From assembly GCA_951406725.2 (NCBI GenBank), contig OX597820.1, forward strand, positions 34,286,001 through 34,350,000: a stretch of DNA of 64,000 nt, written 5' to 3'. Position 1 is the first letter of the stretch. Each line of letters starts with the position of its first letter. A program made the position numbers and the translations under genes. The notes under the pieces were generated by a model, which did not search any database, had not been told where the DNA came from, and saw only the letters and a list, made by a program, of their open reading frames with translations. Shown one piece after another: positions 3,113 to 64,000 of this stretch. This DNA comes from Octopus vulgaris (taxonomy: Eukaryota).

Positions 3113-3158
3113 GACACCTGATGAAGGCTAGAGGGTATATCAGCCGAAATTTTGTGTT
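3113..3158 (+). ncRNA. Minimal type I hammerhead ribozyme-like motif (right arm)
   Basis: gacac-CTGATGA-a-ggct[agagggtatatc]agcc-GAAA-tttt-gtgtt. Stem I is gacac/gtgtt and stem II is ggct/agcc; stem III has decayed. Confidence 0.6.
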
Positions 3159-8029: not shown

Positions 8030-8340
8030 TCCTCCTTCATTCACCTCTTTCTCCTCTTCATCCACCTCTTTCTCTTCATCCACCTCTTTCTCCTCTTCAT
8101 CCACCTCTTTCTCTTCATCCACCTCTTTCTCTTCATCCACCTCTTTCTCCTCTTCATCCACCTCTTTCTCCTCTTCATCCACCTCTTCCTCTTCATCCAC
8201 CTCTTTCTCCTCTTCATCCACCTCTTTCTCCTCTTCATCCACCTCTTTCTCCTCTTCATCCACCTCTTTCTCCTCTTCATCCACCTCTTTCTCCTCTTCA
8301 TCCACCTCTTTCTCCTCTTCATCCACCTCCTCTTCCTCCA
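8030..8340. repeat. 21/18-bp pyrimidine-rich minisatellite (tcatccacctctttctcctct)
   Basis: About 14 near-identical units are directly visible; they produce the EEEKEVD and MKRRKRW pseudo-ORFs. Confidence 0.95.
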
Positions 8341-9397: not shown

Positions 9398-10145
9398 TTG
9401 CATAACTGATCCTTACACATCAACTTTATAAAGGGCTTGGTATAGCTGCATATCCTACCCCTGCACCCAAGATTAACTTACAAGGGAAAGGGTGTAGATG
9501 ATATAACTGAACCATGCACAATGGATTTGTAAGTGGAGGAGTCTTGATGACATAACTGACACTTGCTCTTATCTGATTTATAAAGGTAGAGATACGATTG
9601 CATAACTAACTCTTGCACCCTAGATTTATAATGAAGATATGATTATACATCTTCCTCCTGCACACCAAATTTATAAGAGGCGGGTCATCATCATCATCAT
9701 CATCATTTAACATCTGCTTTCCATGCTAGCATGGGTTGGATGATTTGACTGACATCTGGCGAACCAGATGGCTGCACCAGACTCCAATCTGATCTGGCAG
9801 AGTTTTTACAGCTGGATGCCCTTCCTAAAGCCAACCTCTCTGAGAGTGTAGTGGGTGCTTTTACGTGTCACTGGCACAGGGGCCAGTCAGGTGGCCACGC
9901 TGAAATGGTGTTTTTTATGTGCCACCTGCACAGGAGCCAGTCCAGCGGCACTGGCAACAACCTCGCTCAAAAGTTTTTTCACGTGTCACCAGGACAAGTG
10001 CTAGTAAGGTGATGCAATAGTTGATATAACTAATCCCTGCACAAATTTTAAAGGGACGGGTGTAATTTCAACATCTGCACACCTGATTTATAAGAGAAGG
10101 ATTCAGTTGATATAACTGACCTCCTATACATCATTTAAAGGGGAA
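9398..10145. repeat. Degenerate ~50-bp tandem array interrupted by a family C element
   Basis: Recurring ataactga...tgcac...gatttataa units at 9398-9680 and 10015-10145. Confidence 0.65.
9685..10015 (-). mobile_element. Retroposon family C with (GAT)n tail
   Basis: (CAT)n-tttaacatctgctttccatgctagcatgggttgga...cagctggatgcccttcctaa; closely similar to 27776-28312 and 38070-38545. Confidence 0.85.
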
Positions 10146-11079
10146 AGAAAATGATGATGATGGTGATGATGATGATGGTTGCTATGATTTCAGAGCAACC
10201 ACTTCTACTAATTAAATTGCCTGGTTAAGAGCTTTTAAGTGAATTTATTTCTCAACCTTTTGAATGGATTTATTCCATGTAAGCCCTTACTGCTAGCCAT
10301 GTATTGCTAACCATGTACAAAGACTTCTTTCTCTGCCAGCTTGCTTGTAACCCTATATTATCTCTTATGCACCCATACCTTAAACTGGATACACTGTATT
10401 GAATTCTTACCTTCTCCTTTTCTGTACACTAAGCATGACCATTTCTCAAGTAGAAGTAGAGTCCTGTCTTCTAACTCTCTAACTATTGTCTTAGCTAGAT
10501 TAACTTTAACCTTTAGCACACTGCATTTTCTCTAGAATTGTTTCCCCTGCCACTGCCCTGTTACTACAGGGGAGAAAACTCATATGGTGACATGATGTGC
10601 TTCAGGTTAAGGTCTCTTGATTCAAGGCTTTGGTTCTCTTCATTCCTACTCTCCTTCTCTCTTCTCTTCACTCCTACCCACCTTCTCCTTCCCCCTCCAT
10701 CGTCACCCCTCCCGTGTAAGCCCACCCACCCCTACACATTCCAACCCCACCCTATCCCTTACACTCACTCCCACATACCCCACCCTCTGCCTACCCACGT
10801 ACACCACCTCTACCCCACCCCACCTTTGCTTTCCCCATTCTCACTTCCCCCACCTCCCAACACCATCACACCACACCACTACACCATACCACACAACACA
10901 TCACATCACCACGTACACAACAGCACTGACCACTTCCCAGCCCCACATTTTTACACCTACACATACACACATCAAGGTCACCAGCCCTCTTCCACACGCA
11001 CATACAAACTCTCTTATACTCACGTTTTGGGTTCACCACTATTTTATTATCTCCCCTTCTTCCTAGCTCTCTTGTGTGA

Positions 11080-11280
11080 CCCTTCTGTCCAGCATTCACC
11101 ATGATAAATTGCTAGCCACTACACATTCTTTATTTTCTCTCCTTGTTTCTTTCTGTGGATGTGCGTAGGCTTGAAACATTAAAGACTTTCTGACTTCCTG
11201 AGCATTATATCAATACATCTGTTTGTTGTCTACACCACCTGTCTTTGTCTTTTGTTTTTTTTTTTTGTTAATTCTCCCCT
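11080..11280 (+). mobile_element. Penelope-like pLTR-type repeat with decayed hammerhead motif (11148-11185)
   Basis: tcttt-CTGTGGA-t-gtgc[gtag]gctt-GAAA-catt-aaaga. Stem I (tcttt/aaaga) is intact. The downstream ttcctgagc motif is shared with the 23950 and 37081 repeats. Confidence 0.5.
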
Positions 11281-11337
11281 TATCGTTTAGCGTCCGCTTT
11301 CCATGCTAATATATATATATATATATGTATATATGCG

Positions 11338-11487
11338 AAGGGCTTCTTTCAGTTTCTGTCTACCAAATCCACTCACAAGGATTTGGTTGGCTTGAGGCTA
11401 TAGTAGAAGACACTTGTCCAAGGTGCCATACAATGGGACTGAACCTGGCACCATGTGGTTAGTAAGCAAGCTACCTACCACACAGCT
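11338..11487 (-). mobile_element. SINE family B, 5' half
   Basis: Reverse complement of the tRNA-like head and ccttggacaagtgtcttctactatagcc segment. Confidence 0.8.
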
Positions 11488-12369
11488 AATGTAAATTTAT
11501 ATCACGGACTCCACAATGTATCTGGGTTTCTGTGGCTGATATGTATTTATATTTTTTTAGATTTCAATTATTTCTGTGGGAGGTTTCGGAACGTAACACC
11601 CACGATTACTGGGTGTATGTAATCGAGGGATTACTGTATGTATGTAATCGAGGGATTACTGTATGTATATATATATGAGTGCACGTATATATGCATATGT
11701 ACACCAAATTTACTCATATGGCTTTTTAATTGACCTGAGGTTATATTAGGAGACACTTATTCAAGCTGCTGTATTTTGGGACTGAACCTGGAACTGTATG
11801 GTTGGTAAGTGGACTTCTTAACCACACAACCATGCCTGCACCTATTTTCCGTAATGAGATGCCTTCTACAAGATCCTTTTATGCCACCTCCCTCTGTATA
11901 TAGGACAATGTAAATATTTCTGATGAGCTGGTAATGACATGTGAAACTGATTGATTTGTTCTGTATTCTGTTCTGCAGAGAGACAGAAGGTTCAGTCACT
12001 ATGGTTCAGTCATAAGGTGGTTTTTTCTCTTTTTTGTTGTTGTTATATATTTGTACTGCATGTCCAAATATCTGTTGCAACATTCAAAGCAAGTTTAGAG
12101 TTTTCAAATAATCAGACCATCTTCCTTTGTTGCTTCCTTCTGCAGTAAGACGTGTGTCAAGGTCTTTTGTCCCTCCTCCCTCCTCTGCCACTATTCTTGG
12201 TGGCACTACAGAGAGTTCATGGGGCAGGGGTGGAGCTGGGTTTGCCCTTCCATCTCTGGTGAAACCATAAGAAGAAAGAAAAAGGTCACACTGTTTTCTT
12301 AACAATGCTCGGTGCAGAGTTAAAGGAAGTGTCATCGAGTTACCATGGTTACAGATGTGACACAGCAAC

Positions 12370-12416
<47 letters not shown>

Positions 12417-14511
12417 GCGAGCTTCCGACTGAGAAACTAAAGAATGGTTGTAGGTTAAACTGAAAGATCCTGCGAATTCTTGTTTGTTTCCTGTCATGAA
12501 CATGGTACTGTTGTTTGGCAACGAAATGCTAAGACACCTATACTCTCATAGATATGTACATGGACTTACTCACAAATACATATACACGTACACATTTTCC
12601 TCTCACACATACATACACACACACACACACACACGTAAGTACATGCTTGTGTACACATGCACATAAAGTTTATATGTGCAAACATTTTATGCTTACATTC
12701 CTACGTATGAAATGATGTGGGTGTGTGTTATATGTCAACAAAACACACACACACACACACACACCAGACACATGTAATGTATGTATATACATGTATTGCA
12801 CTACACATATACTACACACACAAACATGCATATACATATATACATGCATGTGTTCATGTGTTATGCACAACTGATTATGTGTGCTTGTGTATGTGTGTGT
12901 GAGAATATGCATACACATATATATGCACACACACACACACACACACACATATTTATGTATATGTCATCATCATCATCGTTTAACATCCGCTTTCAATGCT
13001 AGCATGGGTTGTATGTGTAAACATATGTGTAGTGTTTATATGTGTATATATGTATGTGATTGCATTTATGTGTGTATGTATGTGTATATATGCATGAATG
13101 TGCATGTGTCTATATGTGTGTGTGTGTGTGTGTGTGTGCATATATATATATGAAGGGAGAGAGAATGAGAAAGTGAAATAATTTGACATGCGTATATATG
13201 TGCATGTATGGCTATGTATGTATATATATATTTATATGTATGTATGTATGTATCTGTTATGTTTGACAGTTCAGCTTCCTCATAAATGAATGTGTACATC
13301 TATGTTACTGCATGCACAGTCATATCTATGTGTATGTGACTAAAATATGTATGTATGTGTATAAACATATAGCCATAACTACATGAAGGTGTGCGTGTGC
13401 ATGCACACACACACACACATACACACACACACTCTCTCTCTCTCTCATACACACCTCTTGAAGTAATGTTTCTCCACTTCCATCAACAGAACCCTTGTAT
13501 CTACTTCAAATTTGATTATTATTGTAACTACATACATGGATGTGTGTTTGTATATGTATGTATATGTGTGTATCTGTATCTGTGTATATATGTATTTGTG
13601 TAGATTTATATATACATATGTATGTGTGCATGTATTGCATTAAACTGCATACAATTGTGGGACTCTGGTTCGAGAGTTCCCAAGTCTTCTCTGATCTGGG
13701 GTAGAAGCCTCGTGTCAGGACCCCAGTTAGGGGTTCACTAGAATATATGATGGCCATCCATCTGAGCCTGGAGATGCAGAAATACTCTTGATTGGTGTCA
13801 GGATGCACAGTAAAACCATATAGGAGAGGGTCACTGATGTAAAACCCATGTCTTAATGTGATCACTGGTCATCTTGCTTTGACCTCTCACTAGATACTTA
13901 TTATGGAGACACAGTGATATTTGTGTTGTACAAGTATTTATCCCTGTAATCTGTCCTCTTTCTTGTTAACCCTCTCTTCCTTGGTAACCATGTACCTCTT
14001 CTACAGTAAGTCATGTTTCTGTCTCTCTGTCACATTCTATCCTTTCATCATTTGACACAAGATGGCCTCCTCCAACGCCCCCCCCCCCCCCTCAAAGATT
14101 CCATGTCTTACAAGTTGGTTGGCAACCCTGCCAGTGGCGGTATCCCTCAAAAAGCATCCAGTCCACACTGTAAAGTGGTTGGCATTTAGAAGGGCATCCA
14201 ACTATAAAAACCATGACAAAACTGACCTCACCTGTGCTAATGAAGCACAAGGAGATAGCAATCTTCTATGAAGATGGGGCAATCACCATGTGTATATATG
14301 TAGGTATGCATGTCATGTATTAATTGTGTATATATATGCACTCAGTTCCCTCTGCAGAGTAGTTGGTTTTAAGGAAGGGCATCCAGCTGTAAAAACCACA
14401 TCAAAACAGATGGAGAAGTCTGGTGCAGTCTTCTGCCTGGCCAGCTCCTGTCAAATTGTCCAACCCATTCCAGCATGGAAGGTGGATGTTAAATGATGGT
14501 AATGATGTATC

Positions 14512-16720: not shown

Positions 16721-18364
16721 CTAGAGTTGACTGATTCTGCTGTCTGACGGTACTACTGAAGGTAACATTGACTGAGTTTCTTTCAGAGCAGTGTCTTTGT
16801 CAGCTCCGAGGCAGCACTGGCTGAGCATAGTACGAAAGGCTTTGTAAACTGTGGCATCTGTGAAAATAACTGTAAGGGGGAAGATAACTGTTGAGAGACC
16901 AGATAGAGCTGTGGTACAGATGAGGCTGTTGATGTAAGAATCCACAGAAATGAGACTACGAATGGCCTCTGTTAGATAGACTGGCATTATAGAAACAAGG
17001 AAGCTGATGAGCAAGATGACGCAGGTCTTGTAACACTGGGTCATGCTTACGTTATGGATCTCCTTGCTGATTGATGGGTGTGATTCTTCTTCCACCACTG
17101 ATTCAACCGTGATTCGTGGTGGTGCAGAAGACTTTTTGCCAATTGATTTAAATGATGTTGATGCTTCCTCGATGCTGGACGGTGTCCGAATACTTGGCTG
17201 TTGAAATGGATTTGGTGGCAGATCTTCAGCAGATTTGAATGATGATATACTGCTATGGCTTTTTGGATCTTCCAATTGGGCCTGCAATGCTGCGATATCT
17301 ACCGAAAACTTCCGGACATATTGATATCCTTGCGCCTGGGTCTGGTGGTCTGTGTAGCCATTGTCACCAATTTCTCCAAATTGGCAGATTGTGTGCCGCC
17401 TTCGACCGAACATTTGCAGGAATGCTCCTGAATTAAAGCTGAAGCTATTCTTCTTATGTGTTTGTGGATCACCTTGTGTCACTCCTGATGGATTATTGCT
17501 TACAAGTAACTGGTTTGGAGGATGGGAATTTTTTCGCAATGGTTTTGATTTCAGCTCTTTGTACTCGCCACCAGAATCACTTGGAGTCAACGTAGGCAGG
17601 GTTATGGAGTGTTCGGATGTGGAAGCTACAGAGTTTGCTCTGGGTTTTTCTATTGTCTTCTGTTTGAGTTTTACTGCCAGAAACAGAAGGCATTTAATGA
17701 GCAATAAGCCAATTAATATGGTAAGCACCAGGATCTTCATAAGGTAAGACTTACTATTGAGGATGTGATAAAATGATTGGCTGTCTGCAGATAGTTCGTA
17801 TGAATATGATAGCACACCATACAAAATACCAACAGCAAATCCTATGCTTAAAACCAATGGAAGCCCAATATAAACTAAGAACTTTCGACAGGCTTTTGAG
17901 CAACCATATTCACTCAGTAAGAACCAAAGAGCTATCAAAAACAACAGTCCAGCCTTGGTTGCAATTAAGAGTAGAAATAATGAATGTGTTGTCTCCTTCA
18001 TAGACAGGAACAATGTGTTACCATTATGATACATCAGTAGACAAATGATCTCCAATGGTGACCATATCACATTGAAAATGATGGCAATTATGAGGAGCGT
18101 AGCTAGCAGAATGTAGTAGTGATCCTTTATCAGACGGCCAATGGCCAATGTTGTAATTACAACACTACTGCTGAGGAATCCAACCACCGCTGTGAAAGCC
18201 AAAGCAAACATCGAGACAATTAAAGAATGTGCCCGAAATACCTGTGCTGCTCTTTCACTGTTTTCTCCCATGCTGTCATTAAATGTGGAAAGTATGGTGA
18301 CTGTAAGCATTTCTGGGAGACTGCCATTGCTTGGCACAGATTCCGATTCCTCGTTCATGTTCAT
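16721..18364 (-). CDS. Orphan seven-transmembrane (rhodopsin-like GPCR fold) protein with very long third intracellular loop
   Basis: 547-aa high-complexity uninterrupted ORF. N-terminal sequons (NGS, NDS), five hydrophobic helices at about aa 47-230 and a ~210-aa polar loop are followed by two more helices with Pro in TM6 (SIMP) and TM7 (IFP). A helix-8-like VYKAFRTML, a CC pair and a C-terminal -SQL follow. Confidence 0.9.
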   Translation of the reverse strand: MNMNEESESVPSNGSLPEMLTVTILSTFNDSMGENSERAAQVFRAHSLIVSMFALAFTAVVGFLSSSVVITTLAIGRLIKDHYYILLATLLIIAIIFNVIWSPLEIICLLMYHNGNTLFLSMKETTHSLFLLLIATKAGLLFLIALWFLLSEYGCSKACRKFLVYIGLPLVLSIGFAVGILYGVLSYSYELSADSQSFYHILNSKSYLMKILVLTILIGLLLIKCLLFLAVKLKQKTIEKPRANSVASTSEHSITLPTLTPSDSGGEYKELKSKPLRKNSHPPNQLLVSNNPSGVTQGDPQTHKKNSFSFNSGAFLQMFGRRRHTICQFGEIGDNGYTDHQTQAQGYQYVRKFSVDIAALQAQLEDPKSHSSISSFKSAEDLPPNPFQQPSIRTPSSIEEASTSFKSIGKKSSAPPRITVESVVEEESHPSISKEIHNVSMTQCYKTCVILLISFLVSIMPVYLTEAIRSLISVDSYINSLICTTALSGLSTVIFPLTVIFTDATVYKAFRTMLSQCCLGADKDTALKETQSMLPSVVPSDSRISQL

Positions 18365-21750: not shown

Positions 21751-21762
21751 TTATTATTGTTA

Positions 21763-22156
21763 GGCGCAGGAGTGACTGTGTGGTAAGTAGCTTGCTTATA
21801 AACCACATGGTTCTGGGTTCAGTCCCACTGCGTGGCACCTTGGGCAAGTGTCTTCTACTATAGCCTCGGGCCAACCAAAGCCTTGTGAGTGGATTTGGTA
21901 GATGGAAACTGAAAGAAGCCCATCGTATATATGTATATATATATATGTGTGTGTTTGTGTGTCTGTGTTTGAAACCCCAACATCGCTTGAGAACTGATGC
22001 TGGTGTGTTTACGTCCCCGTAACTTAGCGGTTCGGTAAAAGAGACCAATAGAATAAGTACTAGGCTTACAAAGAATAAGTCCTGGGGTTGATTTGCTCGA
22101 CTAAAGGCGGTGCTCCAGCATGGCTGCAGTCAAATGACTGAAACAAGTAAAAGAGT
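21763..22156 (+). mobile_element. Full-length tRNA-derived SINE, family B (CORE-like segment)
   Basis: A box tgtgtggtaag, B box gggttcagtccc, a ccttgggcaagt segment reminiscent of the CORE domain, an internal (TA)/(TG) microsatellite and an aaacaagtaaaagag tail. More than 10 copies occur in the window. Confidence 0.9.
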
Positions 22157-22372
22157 ATGCTGGGCAAAATGCTAAGTGACATTTCATCAGGCTTTATGTT
22201 CTGAGTTCAAATTCCTCCAAATGTCAACATTGTCTTTTATTCCTTTTGGGGTCAATAAACTAAGTACCAGTGAAGCATTGGTGTCGATTGACTAGTCCTC
22301 TCCCTACAAATTTCAGGCCATGTGCCTATAATAGAAAGGGTTATTATTATTATAATATCATTATTATTATTA

Positions 22373-23478: not shown

Positions 23479-23949
23479 TGTATGTTGAACTAATACCATC
23501 ATATCAAGACCGTTCAAGTGAAAAAAAAAAAAAGGAACAGATTACATTGAAAAGATTTCAATATTTGAGTAACTGACATTGGTATTGGACATTTTGTAGT
23601 TGACATTCTATGTTGAACCACCACCATTATTATCATCATCATCATCTTCATCCTCATCATTTAGCATCTGTTGTCCATGCTGGCATAGGTTGAGAGGTTT
23701 GGCCAGGGCTGGTAAGCTGAGGAGCTGCACTGGACTCCAAGTCTGATTTGGCATGGTTTCTACAGCTGGATGCCCTTCCTAACACCAACCACTCTGAGAG
23801 TGTAATGAGTGCTTTTATGTGCCACCGGCATGGTTGCCAGTTTCATGACACCAATATCTATCACAACTACAATTTCACTTGGCTTGATGGGCAGAGTCTT
23901 GGTCATATGTCATTGCTTCCATTGAATGTCTTTGTATATATGTATGTTT

Positions 23950-24147
23950 GACTGCGTGTGTACCGTTGGCGATTTTTTGCCCTCTGTCTTCCCTTCCCTG
24001 GATCTTTCCTTCTCCTATGTTTCCGACGAAGAGCTCTGCTCGAAATGTTAAACCCTCCTTCTTTCCTTCTTTCCTGAGCGTCCAATAATACTATATTTGT
24101 TCCATGTCCTCGCGTTGTTGTGTTTTTTTGTGCTTTCTTGTTTGGAT

Positions 24148-24151
<4 letters not shown>
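23950..24151 (+). mobile_element. Hammerhead-bearing repeat abutting (TA)n (Penelope pLTR / retrozyme-like)
   Basis: 24019-24053 reads gttt-CCGACGA-a-gagc[tct]gctc-GAAA-tgtt-aaac. The repeat ends ggattaac|(TA)n and is homologous to 37081-37320 on the minus strand. Confidence 0.7.
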
Positions 24152-24207
<56 letters not shown>

Positions 24208-24309
24208 CAATTGAGGATAAAATCTTTATAAGAAATTATCAGTAGTTAGCGTGAAAAACCTCGTAAGAGAAAAAATCCGTAAATTTTTCCACTTTGAAAA
24301 TATTTATTT

Positions 24310-24630
24310 ATATTATATTGAGGGTACTACTATTCATAGATACCGCATGCTAAGAGGGACCAATGCAGTCAAAACTACTAAAATATACAAAATTTTACCG
24401 AATGCGTTATGATTTTTCTTATATGTCTTGAGTTTGTTGCACTGATGAACATAGAATGCATATTCTGCATTAATTGCGAAATCACAGGTGATATGTAACT
24501 AAATTCTTTTTTTAAATGACTTGCTTTGAAGTTTTGCATTCGGTAAAATTTTGTTTATTTTAGTAGTTTTGACCGCATTGGTCCCTCTTAGCGTGCGGTA
24601 TCTATGAATAGTAGTACCCTCAATATAATA
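24310..24630. repeat. ~95-bp inverted repeat element inside a (TA)n tract
   Basis: tattatattgagggtactactattcatagataccgc...aaaattttaccgaatgc (about 24311-24405) pairs with its reverse complement at about 24536-24630. Confidence 0.9.
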
Positions 24631-26182
24631 TATATATATATATATATATGTAAATATATATATATGTAAATATACATATGTCTGTGTATCATAGTTTTAA
24701 TATCCACTTTTCTATGCTTGCATGAGTTGGGCAGATTTTCTACTGCCAGATGTCCTTTCTTTTGCCAACCCCACTCATTTTTTAAAGCAGTATAATGTTT
24801 CTCTGATGGTTAGGTGTGCTTGTGCAGAATATTGGAAATAAGTGACAGTGACTGTATAACAGCTACAATCATTTACTACTATGTCAAAGTAAGGAGAGAG
24901 AGAGAGAGTGAGACACATACACACATACATTTCCTGGCCATCTAATAGTTCTGCCAGTCCCTGGATTTGTACTTTTTTTTCATGAACCCTGAAGGGATGA
25001 AAGGAGAAGTTGATGTTGGCAGGATTTGAACTCAGGACATAGTGAGTTGGTGCAGATATTGCTATGTGTTCTATCCAATGTGCTAATGACTCTGTTAGTT
25101 CATCAGCCTGGATTTGGATTAACAGCAGAACAGTAGCGGCTTGTCTATAGGTGCTGTGGAACTACAGCACCGTCTATTTCCACTTGATATTGTTGATAAC
25201 ATTCACTATAATGAGTCCTTTTTTTCTTTAATTCTTACTTGTACATTATATAATCCTTAAGCTTAATGTCAGTAGCCATCCCCTAGTTTATGAAAAATAC
25301 AAAAATCCTTGTATAGAACCGTGTCCTTCACAGTCCCAGTGACACGGTGTTGTGCACATGCTCACATGTTTGAGATAGGAAGCTTCATACTACAGGGAGA
25401 GAGCACTGTGTGAATGACAGTACTGACTTTTGTGTTCAAGTGAAAGGTAGTGTTTCTTTTTGATTCCACATGTGTTGCGCTTAAAAATGTATTTATATTC
25501 TTGAATGTGATAAAGTGTAGAATGAGACTATTATCCCTGCTTCCAGCTTCAGTGTTACTGTCAGGATTTGAAAAAATAGGGCACCCCTCACAATTTAGGG
25601 GGTGGTTTTGAAAAACAAGGGAGAATTCGCAGTGGTGTTTGGTGAACAAATTAAACACACTACCCAGCAGTGGCTAAAATGCGAACCAATCACGTTTATG
25701 TATAAATTTTCTTTTTATATGTTTGTTTCCTTTTACACAATATTAAAACAATGGCTAAACATTTTCTGAAGCAGCACACCCCACTAATTTTATCTACAAG
25801 CCCATACTGCAACAGAATGATAGTTTCTGAGGTATACTTTCTTAAAATGAACACACTAGCATAGAGGATAGGATTGAAAGAAAAAAGGCTGGATCTAAAC
25901 TTGCAAAGGTAGTTGGGCTCTAGCCATGAAATGTGGCAGTATAAACCAAACCAATGCAAATGATGGGATTGAAATAATAAACATGATTGGGCCAAATCTA
26001 AAAAATGGTTATGGGCCTAAACTAGCAGCAAAGGTGATACTGTAAATGACACCCACAAAGTTGATGGAATCAAAATACTAAACATTGATGCACATGTAAA
26101 ATACATTGTGGGCCCCAAACAGTAAGGATAGTAAGAACAACAGTCAAGGTTTGTAAATACCAAACTACAATCTAGTAAAGGT

Positions 26183-33863: not shown

Positions 33864-34239
33864 TAAAAACATAAATGTACACACACACATATATATATTG
33901 CATAAAAGATTGTGAGTAAGGCTAAAACAATGCCAAGTAAATGCAAGGTAAATCGCATATATATATATATATATGTGAGTGGATTTGCTTGATGGACACT
34001 GAAAGTAGCTCCTCGTATGTGTGTGTGTGTGTGATGTATACTTTTATCTACTTTGGTATTGACGCTTTCCTTGCCATGTCCATCTTTCCACAGTCTCTTT
34101 ACATACTTCATTCTTAATTAGTGTTTGTTTCCTCCCGTTATAAGCAAAACACAAATCTGGCAGATGCACAATGTAAGGATACACTTTTGAAGCAGGTGTG
34201 AGGAAGTGCTGCCCGTCTAATGTTTGAAATTGCAAATAT

Positions 34240-35111
34240 CATTCTTTTATTTGTTTCGGTCACTTAACTGTGACCATGCTGGAGCACGGCCTTGAAGGGT
34301 TTTGGTCAAACAAATCGACCTCAAGATTTATTTCTTGAGGCTAGTACTTATTCTAGCAGTCTCTTTTACTGAACCGTTAAGTTACGGGGACATAAGCACA
34401 CCAGTACCAGTTGTCAAGCAGTGATGGGGTGGGGGGGAGGGGCAAACAAAGACACACATATATACGTGACAAGCTTCTTTCTGTTTCCACCTATGAAATC
34501 GACTCACAATGCTTTGGTCGGTCCGAGGCTATAGTAGAAGACATTTGCCCAGAGTGCTACACAGTGGAATTGAACCCGGAACCATGTGGTTGGCATGCTA
34601 GTTCCTTACCACGCAGCCACTCCTGTACCTCTATGTAAATATTCAATTGAAACTTTTGCATAAATTGGAGTTGAAAGCAGAATTGGTACAGAAACAACAG
34701 TAACTGATCATTAGAGATGTGTTAGAGTAGAGTTTTCTATGGCTGAGTGTCCTTCCTGGTACCAATCTTCACTTGTTTCCAAGAAAGGTAGTAATCCCTC
34801 AGTTAGTCAAACAAAAAGCAAGCCAGACATGGTTATGTAGAGAACTGAAAATGAATGTGAGTTTGTATGTATATAGATGTATATATATATGTGTGTGTGT
34901 ATTGTTTTATCCTTTTACCTGTTCCAGTCATTTGACTGTGGCTATGCTAGATCACTGCCTTTAGTCGAGCAAATTGACCTGAGGACTTATTCTGTGTGAG
35001 CCTAGTACATATTCTATCAGTTCCTTTTGCCTAACTGCTAAGTTACAGGGACGATAAACACACTAATATCGGTTGTCAAGCAGCGGTGGGGAGACAAACA
35101 TATCCACACAC

Positions 35112-35166
<55 letters not shown>

Positions 35167-35547
35167 CGACGGGCTTCTTTCAGTTTCCATCTACCAAATC
35201 CACTCACAAGGCTCTGGTTGGCCTGAGGCTATAGTAGAAGACAAGAGCCCAAAGTGCTACACAGTGGGACTGAACCTGGAACCACGTGATTTGTAAGCAA
35301 GCTACTTACTACAGAGCCACTACTGCACCTGTAATATGTACATATATTCTTTTATTCTTTTACTTGTTTCAGTCATTGAACTGTGGCTATGCTGGAGCAC
35401 TGCCTTTAGTTGAAGAACTCAACCGCAGGGCTTATTCTTTGTAAGCCTAGCACTTATCATATCGGTCTCTTATGCTGAACAGCTAAGGTACATGGATGTA
35501 AACACACCAATATTGGCTGTCAAGAGATGGTAGTGGGACACACAAAC

Positions 35548-35579
<32 letters not shown>

Positions 35580-35716
35580 GACGAGCTTCTTTCAGTTTCC
35601 ATATATCAAATCCACTCACAAGGCTTTGTTCAGCCCAAGGTGCCATTTGGTGGAACTGAACCCAGAACCACATGGATGGGAAGTAAGCTTTTTACCACAC
35701 AGTCATGCCTGCACCT
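34240..35716 (-). mobile_element. Three family B SINE copies (about 34240-34630, 34905-35330, 35345-35716)
   Basis: Each is a reverse complement of 21763-22156. Confidence 0.85.
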
Positions 35717-36023
35717 GATCCTAAGAAACATGATTTGTGGAAACATGTGTACCAATGCATTAAGATATTAATAAATTCTATCCAAGGATTGTTATTACTA
35801 TGTGTGTGTATGTGTGTGTGTGTGTGTGTGTGTGTACACATATACATATGAACACACATTCCATAATTGATGCTTTATATAGCTATTATTGTAGTTACTG
35901 TAAAGGTAGCATATTTTCAAGATGCTGCTTGTGGTTCATAACACCTGAAGACATTGGTGTAAATGCCCTCCACTCCTACTCCCTCCAGCTCATTCCCTGC
36001 TGTTGGTGGTGATGGTATGATAT

Positions 36024-36879: not shown

Positions 36880-37080
36880 TATAAAGTCAAATAAAAAAAA
36901 TGGAGGATGCTTAGCTCATTTTATTTGTATCACAGTGGAAAAGTAATGCAAATTAAAAGGTATTAAGAATCCCTTATGGGGAAATTGCTTGCTGAAATTG
37001 TGTGTGTGTATACACACACATGCATGCACTCACACATATATATATATATATATAATGATGATGAGATATATATATATATA

Positions 37081-37320
37081 GTTAATCCAAACATGAAAAC
37101 ACAAAGAGAAACACAACAACGCGAGGGTGTGGAACAAGTATAGTGTTATTGGATGCTTAGGAAAGGAAAGTAAGGAGGAGGATTTAACGTTTCGAGCCGA
37201 GCTCTTCGTCAGAAACATAGAAAAAAGGAAAGGTCCAAGGAAGGGAAGATGGAGAAATAAAACTGACAATGATACACACGCGGTCACATATTGAATGACC
37301 GGAAGAAAATGGGTAAAGAA
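37081..37320 (-). mobile_element. Hammerhead-bearing repeat abutting (TA)n, second copy
   Basis: Homologous to 23950-24151, with the same ggattaac|(TA)n end. Confidence 0.75.
37182..37216 (-). ncRNA. Minimal type I hammerhead ribozyme motif with intact core
   Basis: gttt-CTGACGA-a-gagc[tcg]gctc-GAAA-CG-TT-aaat. It has CUGANGA, a 4-bp stem II, GAAA, a palindromic ACGU stem III and a GUU cleavage triplet. Confidence 0.75.
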
Positions 37321-37398
37321 AAAGTTCTTTTAAAGACAGGAGAGTGCAAGAGAAGGAGGTATGTGCATGCGCGCAGGTCTGTGTGTGTGGTTGTGGCT

Positions 37399-37434
<36 letters not shown>

Positions 37435-44575: not shown

Positions 44576-44909
44576 CTCTCTTTTACTTGTTTCAGTCATT
44601 TGACTGCGGCCATGCTGGAGCATCGCCTTTAGTCAAGCAAATCGACCCCGGGACTTATTCTTTGTAAGCCCAGTACTTATTCTATCAGTCTCTTTTGCCG
44701 AACCGCTAAGTGACGGGGACGTAAACACACCAGCATCGGTTGTCAAACAATGCTTGGGGGACAAACACAAACACACACACATACACATACATTTATATAT
44801 ATATATATATACGACAGGCTTCTTTCAGTTTCTGTCTACCAAATCCACTCACAAAGCATTGATCGGCCCGGGGCTATAGCAGAAGACACTTGCCCAAGAT
44901 GCCACGCAG
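44576..44909 (-). mobile_element. SINE family B lacking most of the tRNA head
   Basis: Close reverse complement of the body of 46078-46470. Confidence 0.85.
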
Positions 44910-45830
44910 GATGTAGTTAAATACTGCAAAGTATTTTGTCCAGCTCTCGAATGATTCTACCAATATGCAATGCTAATGACTTATTTTTTTCCATACAAGA
45001 CCTGAAATTTAGTGGGTGTATGTGTGTGTGTAGTGGTTTCTCTATTGCGTATCTGTGTCAGTGCATGTGAGTGGGAATGAGTGAGGGTGCATACATATCT
45101 GTATGCGCTTGTATGCATGAGTGTCTGTAGATGTGTGTGTGTGTGTTTGTGCGCATTTATATATACTGTGTGTATGATGGAGAGTGCGTAATTTGGGAAT
45201 GTATTTCTGTACAAGCCATCATATGTGTAGATGTGTACCTGCATGTATGCATGTGTGTGTATGTGTGTGTGTGTGTGTGTGTGTGTAAATGAAGCTAAAA
45301 CTATAAATCTTTACCATACTAAATGGTTTTTTTATGGAAATCATGAAAGCAATATTCTGACTACAGCTTTGACATCTGACCACAGTGGCAGGCAGACAAA
45401 GACACCTTTTTGTTTTAAAAAATGTTTTTAACTCGCTGGTACTAGAAGAGGTATATTGACGTTGTTATATTCCTCATAAGCCATAGCAAACCAACACCTG
45501 TAGGGAGAGAATTCCTGAGGGTTCATGCTCTAGGAAAGGATTGGACATACTAATTAACCCAGGGCCTGGGAATGGTGTACACAACAAGACAAGTGGATTG
45601 CAAAGGCTTGAGTTAAGGTGGGTATGAGCCCAGCAGATTTTGAGGAAGAGAAGGCATTGTAGTAGCTGTAGTTAAAATCAGCCACTACACTCTCGGAGTG
45701 GTTGGCGTTAGGAAGGGCATCCAGCTGTAGAAACCCTGCCAGATCAAGATTGGAGCCTGGTGCAGCTATCTGGTTCACTAGTCCTCGGTCAAATCGTCCA
45801 ACCCATGCTAGCATGGAAAGCGGACGTTAA

Positions 45831-46051
45831 CCCTTTAGCATTTAAACCGGCCATATCCGGCCAAAAGTATTCAGCCTGTTTTATGGTCAAACTGGCCAGA
45901 TCTGGTCTCTTACACCAACCCTACAATATCGTTTTAAAAATGAACAGCTACCTCATCAAAATCTCATAGCTACAAGATGATGCATGATTAGTTCAAAACA
46001 ATGTGGATAAAAAAGCATTAATTTTGGCAGAATAATGTGAACACTAGAGGG
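45831..46051 (+). mobile_element. piggyBac-type MITE, family D
   Basis: TTAA is duplicated at 45827-45830 and 46052-46055, splitting the family C tail gcggacgTTAAacgatgatgat. Confidence 0.9.
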
Positions 46052-46077
46052 TTAAACGATGATGATATATATATATC

Positions 46078-46470
46078 AGGAGTGGCTGTGTGGTAAGTAG
46101 CTTGCTAACCAACCACATGGTTCTGGGTTCAGTCCCACTGCGTGGAATCTTGGGCAAGTGTCTTCTGCTATAGCCCCGGGCCGACCAATGCCTTGTGAGT
46201 GGATTTGGTAGACGGAAACTGAAAGATGCCTGTCGTATATATGTATATATATATGTGTGTGTGTGTGTTTGTATGTCTGTGTTTGTCCCCCTAGCATTGC
46301 TTGACAACCGATGCTGGTGTGTTTACGTCCCCGTCACTTAGCGGTTCAGCAAAAGAGACCGATAGAATAAGTACTGGGCTTACAAAGAATAAGTACCGGG
46401 GTCGATTTGCTTGACTAAAGGCAGTGCTCCAGCATGGCCGCAGTCAAATGACTGAAACAAGTAAAAGAAA
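46078..46470 (+). mobile_element. SINE family B, full length
   Basis: Matches 21763-22156. Confidence 0.9.
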
Positions 46471-46871
46471 AAAAGAAAGAAAAAGAATATATATATTTGT
46501 TCTTTCAGTGTCTAAGTTTCCGTGCTATCATGGAATGAACAGGAACATATTTCAGGCAAGCAGATGATCCTCTTTTGTCACCAATGCTTACCAGTTTTTC
46601 AAGACAGGAATTTAAAAAAAATTCTGCTAGTCTTCAAAAGCACAGAGTGATTGATCTTAATGTCAACAAGGAATGTAAACATCACTCACCACCATTTCCA
46701 ACATTCATGCATATTTGCATGTGTGCATGCACACATGTGTAAATATATATAACCATCGTCATCATCTTAACTCTTTAAGTGTTTAAACCACCTGTGTCTG
46801 GCCCAAATATTCTACCTGTCTTATGTTCAGATCGGCCAGATCTGGCCTCTCACACCTATCCTACAAAGTCA

Positions 46872-47277
46872 GTGGCTGTGTGGTAAGTAGCTTGCTTACC
46901 AACCACGTGGTTCCGGGTTCATTCCCACTGCGTGGAACCTTGGGCAAGTGTATTCTACTATAGCCTTGGGCCGACCAAAGCCTTGGGCCGACCAAAGCCT
47001 TGTGAGTGGATTTGGTAGACGGAAACTGAAAGAAGCCTGTCGTATATATGTGTGTGTGTGTGTATGTATATGTTTGTGTGTTTGTGTTTGTCCCCCCAAC
47101 ATCACTTCACAACCGATGGTGGTGTGCTTATGTCCCCGTAAATTAGCGGTTCGGCTAAAGAGACCAATAGAATAAGTACTAAGCTTCCAAAGAATAAGTC
47201 CTGGGGGCGATTTGCTCGATTAAAGGTGGTGCTCCAGCATGGCCGCAGTCAAATGACTGAAACAAGTAAAAGAGTAA
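46872..47277 (+). mobile_element. SINE family B with an 18-bp internal duplication
   Basis: Matches 21763-22156; ccttgggccgaccaaag occurs twice in tandem. Confidence 0.9.
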
Positions 47278-47716
47278 AGCGTAGATATTGTTGAGATCTC
47301 AATGTTACAATACAGTGCATGATTAATTGAAAACAATGGCGATAGATAATAATACTTTTAACAGAGTACTCATAATGCTAAAGAGTTAAATATACATATA
47401 TACTCATACATACACATACACACACACACACATATACATATATAAACATATATGACAGGATTCATGCAGTTTCTGACTTAACGTATTCTTTGGTCCAGGG
47501 TGAAAGTCAAATATTTACCTAAGATGCTGAACTTGAAATCATCTTGTTGTGGAGCAAATTTCTTGACAACAAAACTATGTCTGCACCTGTGTGTGCTGGG
47601 TTATGATGGGCAAATGAGAAAGAGTGCTCAATATATTTTGTCGAGGATATGGATTTTTATTGAAACTGAAACTTATGTCATAAAACAAACTCTCAGTGTC
47701 TATGTACATGTGTGTA

Positions 47717-48902: not shown

Positions 48903-49660
48903 AGTGTGGAACAGTATAGTTTGCATGAAGCATTGTCTGCTATATACCTGTAAATGCATCTGTGTACTTACAAGAAATAACATAAGTGGCTTTGTTCTTT
49001 TACTTTGTATTTCGCTTTTTCAGAGTTAAGACTCCTTCATCAGGAAATCTTCCTGAAGAAGGGTTCCTAACCATTAACTTGTACTATTTCTTATATTTCT
49101 TGCATCCTTTTGGTTTTCTAAAAAAAGGAATTAGAAACATTAATATCAATCATGTTCCATAGAATTTCTTGTCACTTTTGTATCATGTTTTACTGCTTCA
49201 GTTCAGTTGTTGTTTGCACTCGGCAGTCATCACTGGAATTTCATGGTATTTGAGGAAACCATAGCTCAAAAATGTGTAATATTTAACATATACACAGCTC
49301 TGTGAAACTTCATTTGTGAGTATTGAATACTCATGGTAACTTTACAGAAATTTTCCATGTTTGTATGAGTTGCAAAGTTTGATAGCAACCTTAGAAAACC
49401 ACATCTTATTCCAGTGTCTAAGTTTTGACCCGCTTTCTAAGGCTAGATATCCTTCCTGACTCCAACCACATTACAGAGTGCATTTTTTCATGGAACCAGC
49501 TTTTTAGAGGTTGCTTTGTCATCAACAAGACTAAAGAGGCCTTGCATGGTGGATGGTACAAACTTAATATGGTGAAGATGTTAGTGGAAAGAATAAGAAT
49601 GGACAGTATTGGAGTAAGAGTATTATGTATATATGCTTTACACATGGTGATGTAAAATAT

Positions 49661-50027
49661 ACTCTTTTACTTGTTTCAGTCACTTGACTGCGGCCATGCT
49701 GAAGCATTGCCTTTTAGTCGAGCAAATCAACCCCAGGACTTATTCTTTGTAAGCCTAGTACGTATTCTATCAGTCTCTTTTGCCGAACCGCTATGTTATG
49801 GGGATGTAAACACACCAACATTGGTTGTCAAGCAATGTTGGGGGGACAAACACAGGCACACACACATATACATGATGGGCTTCTTTCAGTTTCCCTCTAC
49901 CAAATCCACTTACAAGGCTTTGGTTGGCCTGAGGCTATAGTAGAAGACACTTGCCCAAAGTGCCACACAGTGGGACTGAACCTGGAATCATGTGGCTGGT
50001 AAGCAAGCTACTTACCACACAGCCACA
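49661..50027 (-). mobile_element. SINE family B
   Basis: Reverse complement of 21763-22156. Confidence 0.9.
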
Positions 50028-50734
50028 TTACATACATCTCTCTCTCTCTCTCTCTGGCCAGGTAACCATATACCTCCTCTACAGCAAGACACCTGTTTCT
50101 GTCTCTCTGTCACACTCTAACCTTTCATCATCTGGCACAAGATCACCTCCTCCAATGCTCCTTTCCTTCTCAAAGGATCTTTGTTTTGCAAGTTACTTGG
50201 TGACCCTGTCTGTGCTGGTGCCACATAAAAAGTACTCAGTCTACTCTGTGGGATGGTTGGTGTTAGGAAGGGCATCAAACTGTAAAAACCTTGTCAAAAA
50301 CAAACACAGAAGTCCAGTGCAATCTTCTGCCTGACTAGCTTTTGTCAAACCATCCAGCCCATGCCAGCATGGAAAATGGACATTAAATTATGATGATGAT
50401 GATACATAGATGTGTTTGCGTATGTGTAACTACATATACGCATGTGCATACACACTTATTTATGTATTAGAAACAGAACTAATAAGGTAAAAATGTAAAT
50501 TGATACAATAAAAAACATAAGAAGCTAATTATTTTTTCACTTAATGTTGAAGAGTTATCTAGAAGTGGGAAATTAAATTGTTTTGTATGTATATGTAAAA
50601 ACAATGTGTATATGTGTACATAAAATTAATACTAGGGGTTTGAAGTAGACAAGGCTAGTTTTTAAAACCATATATATATATACATATAAAACCATATATA
50701 TATATATATATACATATAAAACCATATATATATA

Positions 50735-51127
50735 GGCACAGGAGTGGTTGTGTGGTAAGTAGCTTGCTAACCAACCACATGGTTCCGGGTTCAGTCCCAC
50801 TGTGTGACATCTTGGGCAAGTGTCTTCTGCTATAGCCCTGGGCCGACCAATGCCTTGTGAGTGGATTTGGTAGACGGAAACTGAAAGAAGCCCCTCGTAT
50901 ATATGTATATATAAATATATATATATATGTATGTGTGTGTGTTTGTGTGTCTGTGTTTGTCCCCCTAGCATTGCTTGACAACCGATGCCGGTGTGTTTAT
51001 GTCCCCGTTACTTAGCGGTTCGGCAAAAGAGACTGATACAAAAGAATAAGTCCCGGGGTCGATTTGCTCGATTAAAGGCGATGCTCCAGCATGGCCGCAG
51101 TCAAATGACTGAAACAAGTAAAAGAGT
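50735..51127 (+). mobile_element. SINE family B
   Basis: Matches 46078-46470. Confidence 0.9.
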
Positions 51128-52027
51128 ATATATATATCGTGTGTGTGTGTGTGTGTGTGTATATATGCATACAAACACACATATACACACATTGCCATTT
51201 AACATCCATTTTTCCATGCTTGTATCACTCAGACTGTGTATGTTGAAGCAGATTTTCTATGTCACTCGTTTCCAAAGAAGGTAATATATTCCTGTAAATG
51301 GCCAGGTTTACATGGAAGATGTGATGCAACTGACACAGCTTGTATGACAGTCACGCTCGTTTACAGCTAACATGCAGTGTTCAACATGAAGACACATACA
51401 CACACTCATGCATACACAACTAACTTTCAGTTTATGTCTATCAAATCCACCCACTAGAACCCACTCGCTCAAGGTGTAACTAAACCCAAAACCACATAGA
51501 TGGCAAGCCAACTTCTTAAACATGCTGAGGCACTGCCAACCATGTTGCTACATCTTCATTAATCTTCCTTTAAGGGTTGGCATTTGGTGAATGAGGGTGT
51601 TTGATGCTGCTGTCCCTCATTTAGTTTTGAAGACATGTATATCTATCACATATAGGTCTCTCAGCTCCTTCAGGAGGATATTGGAAAGCCATGGGCCCTT
51701 GAATCTCAAGGGCCCACTGTATCTTACCCTATATTTTGACAGCAGGGAGGGAGGGATTTAGGGCACTATGCAATGGTACCCTATTCTGGCTTTTACTCGT
51801 TGTTTTTATGTCAAGCTTTACATAAAAAAAAAAAAACATTTTGCATTAAACTGGACTGTTTAATTTTTTTTTAAAGAGTACACGCTTATTTAACTTTTAA
51901 AAGGTAAAGGTTGACAGGGACTTTGAAGTTTCTGTGTGCTCACATTTGTCAGAGGCTCGTTTAACTTCAAAGTTACTGTCAAACTTTTCATTGTAGAAGT
52001 TCAATATACACACAGAGTCACATATTT

Positions 52028-53605
<1,578 letters not shown>

Positions 53606-62266: not shown

Positions 62267-64000
62267 TGATGACGACAACGATGACGTATTAGTCGTACAT
62301 GTTTACACATGTATAAGTTAACATCTACATGTTTTTAGTTGATTCCATTTCCATGGTAACAGTGTCGATGTCTCCCATAAACAAAACGTCTGGCAACTAT
62401 TTGATATGTTAAGACATGAAATAAAGTTCCCTTATCTTTTATCTTTTACTTCTTTCAGGCATTAGACTGTGGCCATGAAGAATTTTTAGTTGAATAAATC
62501 AACCCGAGTACAGTTTTTTTTTTTAAAGCCTGTGACTTATTCTATTTGTGTCTTTGGTTGAATCGTTAAGTTATGGAAACATAAAGACACCAACACTGAT
62601 TGTCAAGTGGTGGTGGGACACACAGACACAATAGGCTTCTTTCAGTTTCAGTCTCCCAAATTTAGTCACATGGCTTTGGTTGACTCGAGGCTATAATAGA
62701 AAACACTTCCCCAAGGTGCCATGCAGTGGGACTGAACCCTGAATCATGTGGTTAGGATGCAAGTTTCTTACCACACAGATTTAGTTGGAAAAAAATTTTT
62801 TAAAATAACAAGTGAGGGTTGGCATCAGGGAGAGCATCCATCTGTTGAATACTGTTTCAAAATGTCTCAGCCAACCCTTGCTAGCATAGGGGTGGGTGGA
62901 TAGGAAATGACATCGCTGATGATGATGAGGAGGAGAAGGAGGAGGAGGTGGATGATAATGGTGATATGTTGGTGGTGGTTATGGTGACAATGGTGATGAT
63001 GATAATGGCAATGATAATTATGATGATGATGATGATTATTAAGAGAATGATAATGATGCTGATGGTGATGAAGGCAGCAATGATAAACAGTGTATGAACA
63101 AATATATTAATAATTCTCATTAATATCCTTTCCTGCAGACATTATCCAGTATCGTATCTCTGTAGTGATATCATCAACAAACTTAAGCCTTCTCCCATTA
63201 TAAATTTATGCTGTGGCTTTGAGAGAGGCCTCTAAGTGGTCAGTGGACATGCTAGACAAGATAGACAAACTTCCCTCAAAAATCGCACAGTGCCATCTTA
63301 AACATGCAGCACTGATTAACAATGTTATCCTAGATGGATTGCCATGGTTGGAAAAACCTTTGAATATAAGTTTGCTTGATTATATCAGACTTTGGGCTAA
63401 ACAACATCAGTGTATGTATGTATGTATATACACATATTTGTGTGTGCTTATGGGTGTCTGTATATACATATATGTATATATATGTTTGAGTGTATATGTA
63501 TATATATTTGTGTGTATGTTTATGTGTGTGTATATATATATATATATATTTGATTGTATGTGTGTGCTCCACTTCTGTATGTGTAATGTGTTAGTACTTT
63601 TTTTTATTTATCTATGGTGAATTTAATCATGTGTGTATGTTTATATGCGTGTATATGTATGTGCATGTGACTACATGCATATATGTGTGTTTATATCTGC
63701 ATTTGTATCAATGCAAATGCACACACATGCATATATATACATACACATGCATGCACATGCACACACACACTTGAATACATGCCTGTTTTTGCATGTGTGT
63801 ATATGAAGCATATATATGTATATATATGTGTGTGTGTATTGTGTCCTTATGTATGTAGCTGCTAATTAGTTGTGATTAATGCGGTATTAATAATTTCCAC
63901 TTAACATTCCCTTCTCCCATGAGATATCCCATGCTGTATCTTATTGAGATAACCCCATTATCACATACCAATCCATTTCTGAACAGGACTCCCTCCTCCC

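What the first reader, a model, noticed from the sequence alone, without database searches (positions are those of the whole stretch)
37081..37320. (TA)n-associated repeat with an intact minimal hammerhead core; second copy at 23950-24151
Seen: CUGACGA-a-GAGC[ucg]GCUC-GAAA-CG-UU at 37182-37216. The second copy keeps stem II, varies the loop (tct vs tcg) and has a perfect stem I (gttt/aaac) but two core changes. Both copies end at ggattaac next to (TA)n. Known: a loop-less palindromic ACGU stem III requires dimerisation, as described for Penelope-type hammerheads. Inference: a microsatellite-targeting pLTR or retrozyme family with potentially active members.
Basis: partly seen in the sequence, partly recalled or inferred. 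Interest (0 to 1): 0.75.

Follow-up and report, generated by a model that had tools for sequence, protein, structure and literature searches.

The report
Octopus Penelope-type repeat with minimal hammerhead
This is an old, very abundant octopus repeat that sits in TA microsatellites and carries the textbook minimal hammerhead ribozyme motif of animal Penelope-like jumping genes; it is most likely the leftover tail end of such an element, and a lone copy is predicted not to cut itself.

Summary
Two copies (37081-37286 minus, 23949-24151 plus; 171 of 207 columns identical) hold a minimal type I hammerhead and end at GGATTAAC|(TA)n. None of 300 shuffles gave the motif. The host is an Octopus. Public DNA runs lay 8,000-13,000 contigs each on copy A: the family has thousands to tens of thousands of copies (inferred), the intact core is the majority state, (TA)n follows the 3' end family-wide, and cover thins towards the 5' side. 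The motif fits the published consensus of metazoan Penelope-like (PLE) min-HHRs point by point (PMC4209133), and (TA)n targeting is published for several PLE clades (PMC8557442). Best reading: 5'-truncated 3' ends (pLTR-type) of a (TA)n-targeting PLE, Neptune-like by elimination. I found no parent ORF, so membership rests on the RNA motif and anatomy. The copies are solo, on opposite strands and about 6% or more diverged, so neither is likely active, and this is not a tandem retrozyme. New member of a known kind. In passing: a second hammerhead family at 2703-3205 has a tRNA-like head.

The parts
37081..37401 (-). Copy A: solo, probably 5'-truncated 3' end of the element, lying between two (TA)n tracts
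   Evidence: flanks; multi-copy cover from 37080 to about 37365, weak to about 37391
37182..37216 (-). Minimal type I hammerhead of copy A: helix I 4 bp (one G.U), CUGACGA, extra A, helix II 4 bp with 3-nt loop, GAAA, palindromic ACGU, U17; predicted cut between 37186 and 37185
   Evidence: matches the consensus in the PMC4209133 supplement
37066..37080 (.). (TA)7 directly after the 3' end GGATTAAC of copy A
   Evidence: family-wide (depth in the TA bin is 0.65-0.81 of the terminal bin)
37402..37429 (.). (TA)14 at the 5' side of copy A; likely the other half of the target microsatellite
37366..37401 (-). CA-rich, variable 5' part of copy A; other copies carry (CA)n/(TG)n-like sequence here and some continue with different sequence
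   Evidence: tables 2, 5c, 7
23949..24151 (+). Copy B: shorter solo copy, 171 of 207 columns identical to copy A, preceded by a degenerate TA-like run
24019..24053 (+). Hammerhead of copy B with U4 to C (24024) and C15.2 to U (24046); predicted dead
24152..24204 (.). (TA)26 directly after the 3' end of copy B

Best explanation
The two repeats are solo members of a high-copy octopus family that carries a minimal hammerhead motif and abuts (TA)n, and they are likely the 5'-truncated 3' ends (pseudo-LTR type) of a Penelope-like retrotransposon whose endonuclease would target (TA)n. Steps. (1) Shown: fixed 3' end at GGATTAAC|(TA)n, intact core as the family majority, no ORF or tandem partner beside either copy. 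(2) Inferred from published PLE biology: an autonomous RT + GIY-YIG element, Neptune-like by elimination, nicked TA microsatellites and reverse-transcribed its RNA from the 3' end, mostly stopping after 200-320 nt. (3) Inferred: in the master's tandem (pLTR) transcript two hammerheads pair through ACGU/ACGU and process the RNA at G-U-U, 105 nt before the 3' end. (4) Inferred: the dispersed copies have decayed neutrally for millions of years; copy A's core is intact by inheritance and is predicted to be inactive as a monomer.
For: The motif has every feature of the published min-HHR consensus: U-rich 5' flank, short helix I, CUGANGA plus one extra nucleotide, G10.1-C11.1, GAAAN-palindrome-NUH. 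That paper reports most such motifs as dispersed single elements probably from truncated PLEs. Chance: 0 of 300 shuffles; 8,248, 9,725 and 12,942 contigs laid in three runs. Among the 40 of 57 variant rows shown, none changes C3-A9, A13, A14, A15.1, C15.2, G16.2 or U16.1. The common hammerhead variants are tolerated ones (helix I G.U versus G-C 22-46%, U17 to A 1-15%, loop), apart from CpG-type G12 to A (3-13%). Depth in the (TA) bin is 0.65-0.81 of the terminal bin and falls to 0.04-0.05 where copy A's private flank starts; depth at 37344-37355 is 0.02-0.12 of the terminal bin. Copy A has (TA)n on both sides and copy B a degenerate TA run 5'. An unrelated contig with the same helix II/core (L001) has helix I GUCC/GGAC, with 2 of 4 pairs changed on both sides, plus an inverted 72-bp partial copy upstream, a PLE hallmark. 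(TA)n insertion is published for Hydra and Naiad PLEs, and microsatellite bias for Neptune. Octopus genomes hold PLE families.
Against: No parent ORF was found: 0 of 90 reading frames scanned hit an RT or GIY-YIG family or reached any Pfam cut-off, and no genome was available to walk 5'. Neither copy shows the tandem or inverted pLTR arrangement itself. The fall in depth towards the 5' side is confounded by copy A's private changes and a variable microsatellite, so 5' truncation is inferred. The covariation rests on 3 sequences (62 of 500 shuffles reach it), and L001's core and helix II were forced by the search pattern. Rfam gives no hammerhead hit on 37085-37370 at E up to 10. Nearest-neighbour energies do not favour the active dimer (-4.1 versus -26.3 kcal/mol for the MFE dimer). 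(TA)n as target and (TA)n as encoded tail are not formally separated.
Confidence: 0.7

Rival explanations
1. A non-autonomous short element of its own (SINE-like or monomeric retrozyme-like, about 300-400 bp), derived from a PLE pLTR and mobilised in trans by PLE proteins into (TA)n; no ORF-bearing master shares this exact sequence any more.
For: Very high copy number with no ORF seen. Depth drops sharply around 37356-37368, where loose ends become (TG)n-like, as a defined 5' boundary would give. Retrozymes are described as non-autonomous pLTR derivatives with many monomers. One single-copy-depth head-to-tail joint is listed (X2, 37295 to 37066; table 5c). A second family in the window has a SINE-like head plus a min-HHR.
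Against: Copy B starts about 80-115 nt later than copy A, and cover declines in steps. Some contigs continue with other sequence beyond 37389 (table 5c). No A/B boxes in either copy. No tandem array, and the hammerhead is not the canonical retrozyme type.
Confidence: 0.22
2. The 3' end of a non-PLE retroelement (LINE or SINE with a TA-repeat tail) that captured a PLE hammerhead as a passenger; (TA)n is the tail, not the target.
For: A fixed 3' end followed by a simple repeat and a variable 5' end also describe LINEs (PMC8969392 passages). LINEs and SINEs dominate the O. vulgaris repeat content.
Against: (TA)n or TA-like runs also lie at the 5' side of both copies. The min-HHR is described from PLEs, and the core is the family majority, not a decayed passenger.
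Confidence: 0.05
3. Copy A has been kept by selection as a host regulatory ribozyme, for example in a long transcript of the GPCR-like gene that lies 18.7 kb downstream on the same strand.
For: Copy A's core is intact while copy B's is not; copy A has the same orientation as the 547-aa gene at 16721-18364.
Against: An intact core is expected in about 24-40% of copies at 6-9% divergence. The monomer folds with the core paired to CGUUA. There is no same-strand partner in the window, and a single published min-HHR did not cleave.
Confidence: 0.03

Closest known systems
Minimal hammerheads (min-HHR) in the pLTRs of metazoan Penelope-like elements (Cervera and de la Pena 2014, PMC4209133)
   Same: Type I topology, CUGANGA plus one extra nucleotide, G10.1-C11.1, loop-less GAAA-CG-UH palindrome, 4-bp helix I, U-rich 5' flank, thousands of dispersed solo copies. 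The closest listed example in layout is from an Acropora digitifera Neptune element (CUGACGAA, 4-bp helix II ending GCUC, C-G-U-C).
   Different: No cephalopod appears in the parts of the paper and supplement searched. Helix II is short (4 bp, 3-nt loop) against 7-8 bp in Schistosoma. The parent ORF is not shown here.
Neptune-clade endonuclease-positive PLEs
   Same: min-HHR near the 3' end and microsatellite insertion bias (Arkhipova 2006 as cited in PMC8557442; original not read).
   Different: The clade is defined by RT phylogeny and a CX2-5CxxC linker, which cannot be tested without the ORF.
Hydra-clade PLEs, including Hydra-1_Obim of Octopus bimaculoides (PMC8557442)
   Same: (TA)n insertion, hammerhead about 100 nt from the 3' end, same host genus.
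   Different: All Hydra hammerheads listed have a 3-4 bp helix III with a loop, and the Hydra-1_Obim motif has a different sequence; this family has the loop-less type.
Naiad PLEs of Octopus (Naiad_Obim, Naiad_Ovul)
   Same: (TA)n insertion preference in Octopus.
   Different: Naiads lack canonical hammerheads; three diagnostic words of this family (gacgaagagc, gctcgaaacg, cgcgttgttg) are absent from the supplement text searched.
Animal non-LTR retrozymes (PMC7229834; bioRxiv 10.64898/2026.07.22.740005)
   Same: Non-coding, about 300 bp, type I hammerhead, PLE-related.
   Different: Retrozymes are tandem units with mostly canonical hammerheads; these copies are solo, minimal and tied to (TA)n.

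Membership tests
min-HHR of metazoan PLEs | Core CUGANGA ... GAAA ... NUH intact | tested here: met
   Copy A and family majority; copy B has U4 to C
min-HHR of metazoan PLEs | [quoted passage not shown] | tested here: met
   features listed
min-HHR of metazoan PLEs | Palindromic 15.2-16.2 and no helix III loop | tested here: met
   ACGU in copy A and L001; AUGU (wobble-compatible) in copy B
min-HHR of metazoan PLEs | Short helix I (about 3-5 bp) with U-rich 5' flank | tested here: met
   4 bp, 12 of 12 cells paired in 3 sequences, 2 pairs changed on both sides; consensus
min-HHR of metazoan PLEs | Low self-cleavage as dimer, none as monomer | not testable with these tools
   Needs an assay; folding energies do not favour the active form
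Endonuclease-positive PLE (Penelope/Poseidon, Neptune, Nematis) | ORF with telomerase-like RT and GIY-YIG endonuclease | tested here: inconclusive
   None beside either copy (0 of 90 frames); the genome-wide parent could not be sought
Endonuclease-positive PLE (Penelope/Poseidon, Neptune, Nematis) | Fixed 3' end with variable 5' truncation | tested here: met
   Same 3' end in both copies and family-wide, different 5' ends, cover thins 5'-ward; the depth decline is confounded by divergence
Endonuclease-positive PLE (Penelope/Poseidon, Neptune, Nematis) | Partial tandem (pLTR) or inverted 5'-truncated arrangement | tested here: inconclusive
   Absent at copies A and B; one single-copy tandem joint in run X2; an inverted copy is present in the motif relative L001
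Neptune clade | RT phylogeny and CX2-5CxxC linker | not testable with these tools
   No ORF linked to the repeat
Neptune clade | Insertion bias for microsatellites | tested here: met
   (TA)n at the 3' end in about 65-81% of depth and on both sides of copy A; target versus tail not proven
Hydra clade | Hammerhead with 3-4 bp helix III and loop | tested here: not met
   Loop-less ACGU here; Hydra list
Naiad clade | Lack of a canonical hammerhead in the 3' end | tested here: not met
   A complete min-HHR is present
Non-LTR retrozyme | Head-to-tail tandem units each with a hammerhead | tested here: not met
   No tandem at either copy; no high-depth tandem joint among the 15 of 19 joints shown, though long (TA)n would break contigs
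Non-LTR retrozyme | Canonical type I hammerhead (6-bp helix I, loop 1-loop 2 contacts) | tested here: not met
   4-bp helix I with pyrimidine-only flanks; definition
Non-LTR retrozyme | Expressed as small circular RNA | not testable with these tools
   Only contigs were available
tRNA-derived SINE | tRNA-like head with A and B boxes | tested here: not met
   No boxes in copies A or B and no tRNA; the true 5' end of the family may not be present in the window

The most novel reading that the evidence does not exclude
The family is a free-standing, ORF-less, PLE-mobilised element that reached tens of thousands of copies by targeting (TA)n. Because many copies keep an intact core, two same-strand copies in one long octopus intron, or on two transcripts, could pair into a double hammerhead and cut host RNAs. 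Together with the tRNA-headed hammerhead family at 2703-3205, Octopus would hold a class of ribozyme-bearing, Penelope-dependent SINEs.
Probability: 0.1. Interest if true: 0.6.

Novelty: new member of a known kind. Interest (0 to 1): 0.22.

Why it matters
As a single finding it adds a cephalopod family to a list that already covers 40 metazoan species. It matters for annotation: an abundant octopus repeat that Rfam misses and that could be filed as an unclassified SINE is probably PLE-derived. It also offers a large natural variant set for the open question of whether metazoan minimal hammerheads cleave in vivo and why masters keep them. It would matter more if the family proves non-autonomous, or if dispersed copies cleave host transcripts.

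Tried and rejected
Own-genome search: no genome is held for this window. Rfam: no hammerhead family in the 150 of 272 whole-window rows listed, nearly all microsatellite/miRNA artefacts, and none on 37085-37370; the min-HHR is too short for these models, so this is not evidence against it. Core pattern scans: 0 hits in viral contigs, 0 in genome contigs, 1 in metagenome contigs (L001 shares only the hammerhead, so it is another family). An 18-nt word of the repeat gave 13 prokaryotic loci; about 17 are expected by chance and none extends beyond 27 nt, so all were rejected. Pfam scan of 83 of the 100 frames of 55 aa or more around the copies and the second family (17 left out, mostly microsatellite-coded) plus 7 other frames: no RT, no GIY-YIG. 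Expression: no RNA holder listed. Run X9 is only guessed to be RNA; 122 contigs were laid, two long ones at high depth (588 and 1,021), and the 588-depth one carries hammerhead changes; this shows nothing about expression or cleavage. Folding: monomer z-score about -0.1 for both copies, uninformative for so small a motif. Hydra-1_Obim and the Octopus Naiads were rejected as parent. A 31-nt pyrimidine-rich match at 9214-9244 (E 1e-4) was not accepted as a third copy. The continuation word seen in other copies is absent from the window. Earlier scan findings: none by sequence, by all six words or in this genome.

Full report
Observation. The minus strand at 37216-37182 reads GUUU CUGACGA A GAGC UCG GCUC GAAA CG UU AAAU. 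This is a complete minimal type I hammerhead: 4-bp helix I with one G.U pair, intact C3-A9, one extra A, 4-bp helix II with a 3-nt loop, G12-A15.1, the palindrome ACGU in place of helix III, and U17. The second copy (plus strand, 23949-24151) aligns over 207 columns with 171 identities, 24 transitions, 7 transversions and 5 gaps. It has helix I GUUU/AAAC, loop UCU, U4 to C and C15.2 to U. Both copies end in GGATTAAC followed directly by (TA)n. A strict descriptor finds copy A alone in the window and nothing in 300 of 300 dinucleotide-preserving shuffles; allowing one core mismatch adds copy B and one AT-rich hit at 38583.

Host and context. The window is microsatellite- and SINE-rich animal DNA. 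Its one long non-repetitive ORF (16721-18364, minus) falls in a 90% cluster with O. bimaculoides and O. sinensis GPCR-like proteins, so the host is an Octopus. No genome is held for it. Neither copy has a tandem or inverted partner; they lie on opposite strands 13 kb apart and cannot pair within one transcript. I scanned 83 of the 100 stop-to-stop frames of 55 aa or more around the two copies and a second family, plus 7 other frames, against Pfam: none hit an RT or GIY-YIG family or reached a curated cut-off. Neither copy has Pol III boxes or a tRNA head (box patterns recalled).

The family. Thirteen of 24 listed public runs hold part of the stretch. Laying four of them on 37056-37400 at 80% likeness gave 8,248, 9,725 and 12,942 contigs in the three large runs. 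Summed depth reaches 1.5-3.6 million against about 40-60 for most long single-locus pieces. The tool warns that this is not a copy number, and overlapping short contigs inflate it. Two copies in 64 kb scaled to a 2.8-Gb genome (the O. vulgaris size in PMC13282606, used as a stand-in) give 10,600-316,000. I infer thousands to tens of thousands of copies. Three points follow. First, depth in the (TA) bin 37068-37079 is 0.81, 0.65 and 0.76 of the terminal bin, and drops to 0.04-0.05 where copy A's private flank begins, so most copies run from this 3' end straight into (TA)n. Copy A ends 5' at a second tract, (TA)14 at 37402-37429, and copy B is preceded by a degenerate TA run, which fits insertion into a microsatellite. 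The depth gradient is confounded by copy A's private changes. Third, among the 40 of 57 variant rows shown, those inside the hammerhead are the helix I wobble (U or C, both pair with G; 22-46%), U17 to A (1-15%, still NUH), the loop (majority UCC), C11.1 to U (2-7%), the extra A (under 1% in the three large runs) and G12 to A (3-13%, a CpG site). The intact core is therefore the inherited state. Copy A differs from the majority in run X2 at 17 listed positions in about 285 nt (6%, a lower bound). With the rate used in PMC13282606 (JC 0.065 = 18 My) this means millions of years of decay, and an untouched 15-nt core is expected in 24-40% of copies at 6-9% divergence.

Comparative evidence. A pattern scan of metagenome contigs gave one locus, L001, which shares nothing else with the repeat. 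Features not forced by the pattern also fit: C3-U4 present, helix I GUCC/GGAC with 2 of 4 pairs changed on both sides (only 3 sequences, 62 of 500 shuffles reach this), and a 72-bp inverted partial copy upstream, the arrangement drawn for PLEs in PMC8557442.

Mechanism. Shown: motif, boundaries, (TA)n association, high copy number, absence of ORF and partner. Inferred: an RT + GIY-YIG Penelope-like master nicked (TA)n and reverse-transcribed from the 3' end, usually leaving 200-320 nt. In the master's tandem transcript two motifs would pair through ACGU/ACGU and cut after G-U-U, 105 nt before the 3' end. For the solo copies, folding predicts the core paired away with CGUUA in the monomer, and the active dimer scores -4.1 against -26.3 kcal/mol for the best dimer fold (the model ignores tertiary contacts). 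This agrees with the published result that a single min-HHR did not cleave and dimers cleaved weakly. Copy B has lost U4. Neither copy is likely active.

Comparison with what is known. PMC4209133 (main text parts 1-2 of 4 and supplement file 2 parts 1-2 of 3 read; file 1 not searchable) defines the min-HHR, reports thousands of mostly single copies per genome as probable truncated PLEs, and gives a consensus that this motif meets at every position. The nearest listed layout is from an Acropora Neptune element; 'octopus' does not occur in the supplement searched. PMC8557442 (sections 6 and 11, passages, supplement part 2 of 59 and term searches) reports (TA)n insertion for Hydra and Naiad, including Octopus families, and cites microsatellite bias for Neptune (Arkhipova 2006, not read). 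Hydra hammerheads have a looped helix III and Hydra-1_Obim's differs in sequence; Naiads lack hammerheads; so Neptune-like is reached by elimination only. Retrozymes are tandem units with mostly canonical hammerheads (PMC7229834 passages; bioRxiv 2026.07.22.740005 part 1 of 5 and passages, supplements closed), which these copies are not. PMC13282606 (parts 1-2 of 3; supplement listed, not read) annotates PLE families in O. vulgaris, but its library is external, so this family may already be in it under some name. PMC6962438 passages report 235 hammerhead loci in giant squid. PMC12602865, PMC8969392 and PMC10886601 were seen as passages only. Searches for octopus with hammerhead, Penelope, Neptune or SINE terms listed no paper that describes this family; most subscription papers and Repbase/Dfam are outside the library.

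Verdict. A real, ordinary example of a known association: it works like a PLE pLTR min-HHR and meets the motif definition. Membership of a PLE clade is untested for lack of the ORF, and a non-autonomous derivative remains possible (0.22). New member of a known kind; interest 0.22. The second hammerhead family at 2703-3205, with a tRNA-like head and an inverted arrangement, may deserve more attention than the finding itself.

Noticed in passing
window 2703-3205 (minus arm 2703-2976, plus arm 2977-3205): A second, unrelated hammerhead family as a head-to-head inverted pair (81% identity; the plus arm is 5'-truncated at the pivot). Each arm has a tRNA-like head (A box in both, B box intact at 3017-3025 in the plus arm; not called by ARAGORN), an (AAT)n tract, then a min-HHR-like motif (C3 at 2790 minus and 3118 plus; each has private defects and fails the strict scan). 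It looks like a Pol III SINE carrying a PLE-type hammerhead. No hit in viral contigs or earlier findings by sequence; one literature search listed no matching description..
   Followed up: partly
L001 660-990: An animal-looking contig in a metagenome with a min-HHR (core at 818-792, minus), a 72-bp inverted partial copy upstream, and TTGGATTA about 120 nt downstream, like the octopus 3' end. One Naiad consensus in the PMC8557442 supplement also ends in TTGGATTA, and two others have it near their ends; a possible shared 3'-end signal, untested.
   Followed up: partly
window 49010-49065 (minus): A lone CUGAUGA-A-stem-GAAA motif next to a short palindrome, with no helix III palindrome or helix I; possibly a decayed third family.
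   Followed up: no
window 16721-18364 (minus): Single-exon 547-aa GPCR-like host gene with close O. bimaculoides and O. sinensis orthologues; no Pfam hit at E 0.1.
   Followed up: partly
window 24300-24405 and 24536-24641: A 106-bp inverted repeat at 95% identity, 130 bp apart (MITE-like), about 100 bp downstream of copy B's (TA)n.
   Followed up: no
window 9214-9244: A 31-nt match (27 of 31) to the 5' part of copy A in a pyrimidine-rich stretch; fragment or chance.
   Followed up: partly
window 52040-53594: A 1.5-kb compound (TA)n/(TATG)n microsatellite; the window holds 67 tracts of six or more TA units.
   Followed up: no
window 21760-22160, 34230-35720, 44580-47280, 49660-51130, 62440-62780: More than ten copies of a 330-420 bp dispersed repeat with an internal (CA)n/(TA)n tract, probably a known octopus SINE (the name was not checked).
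   Followed up: no
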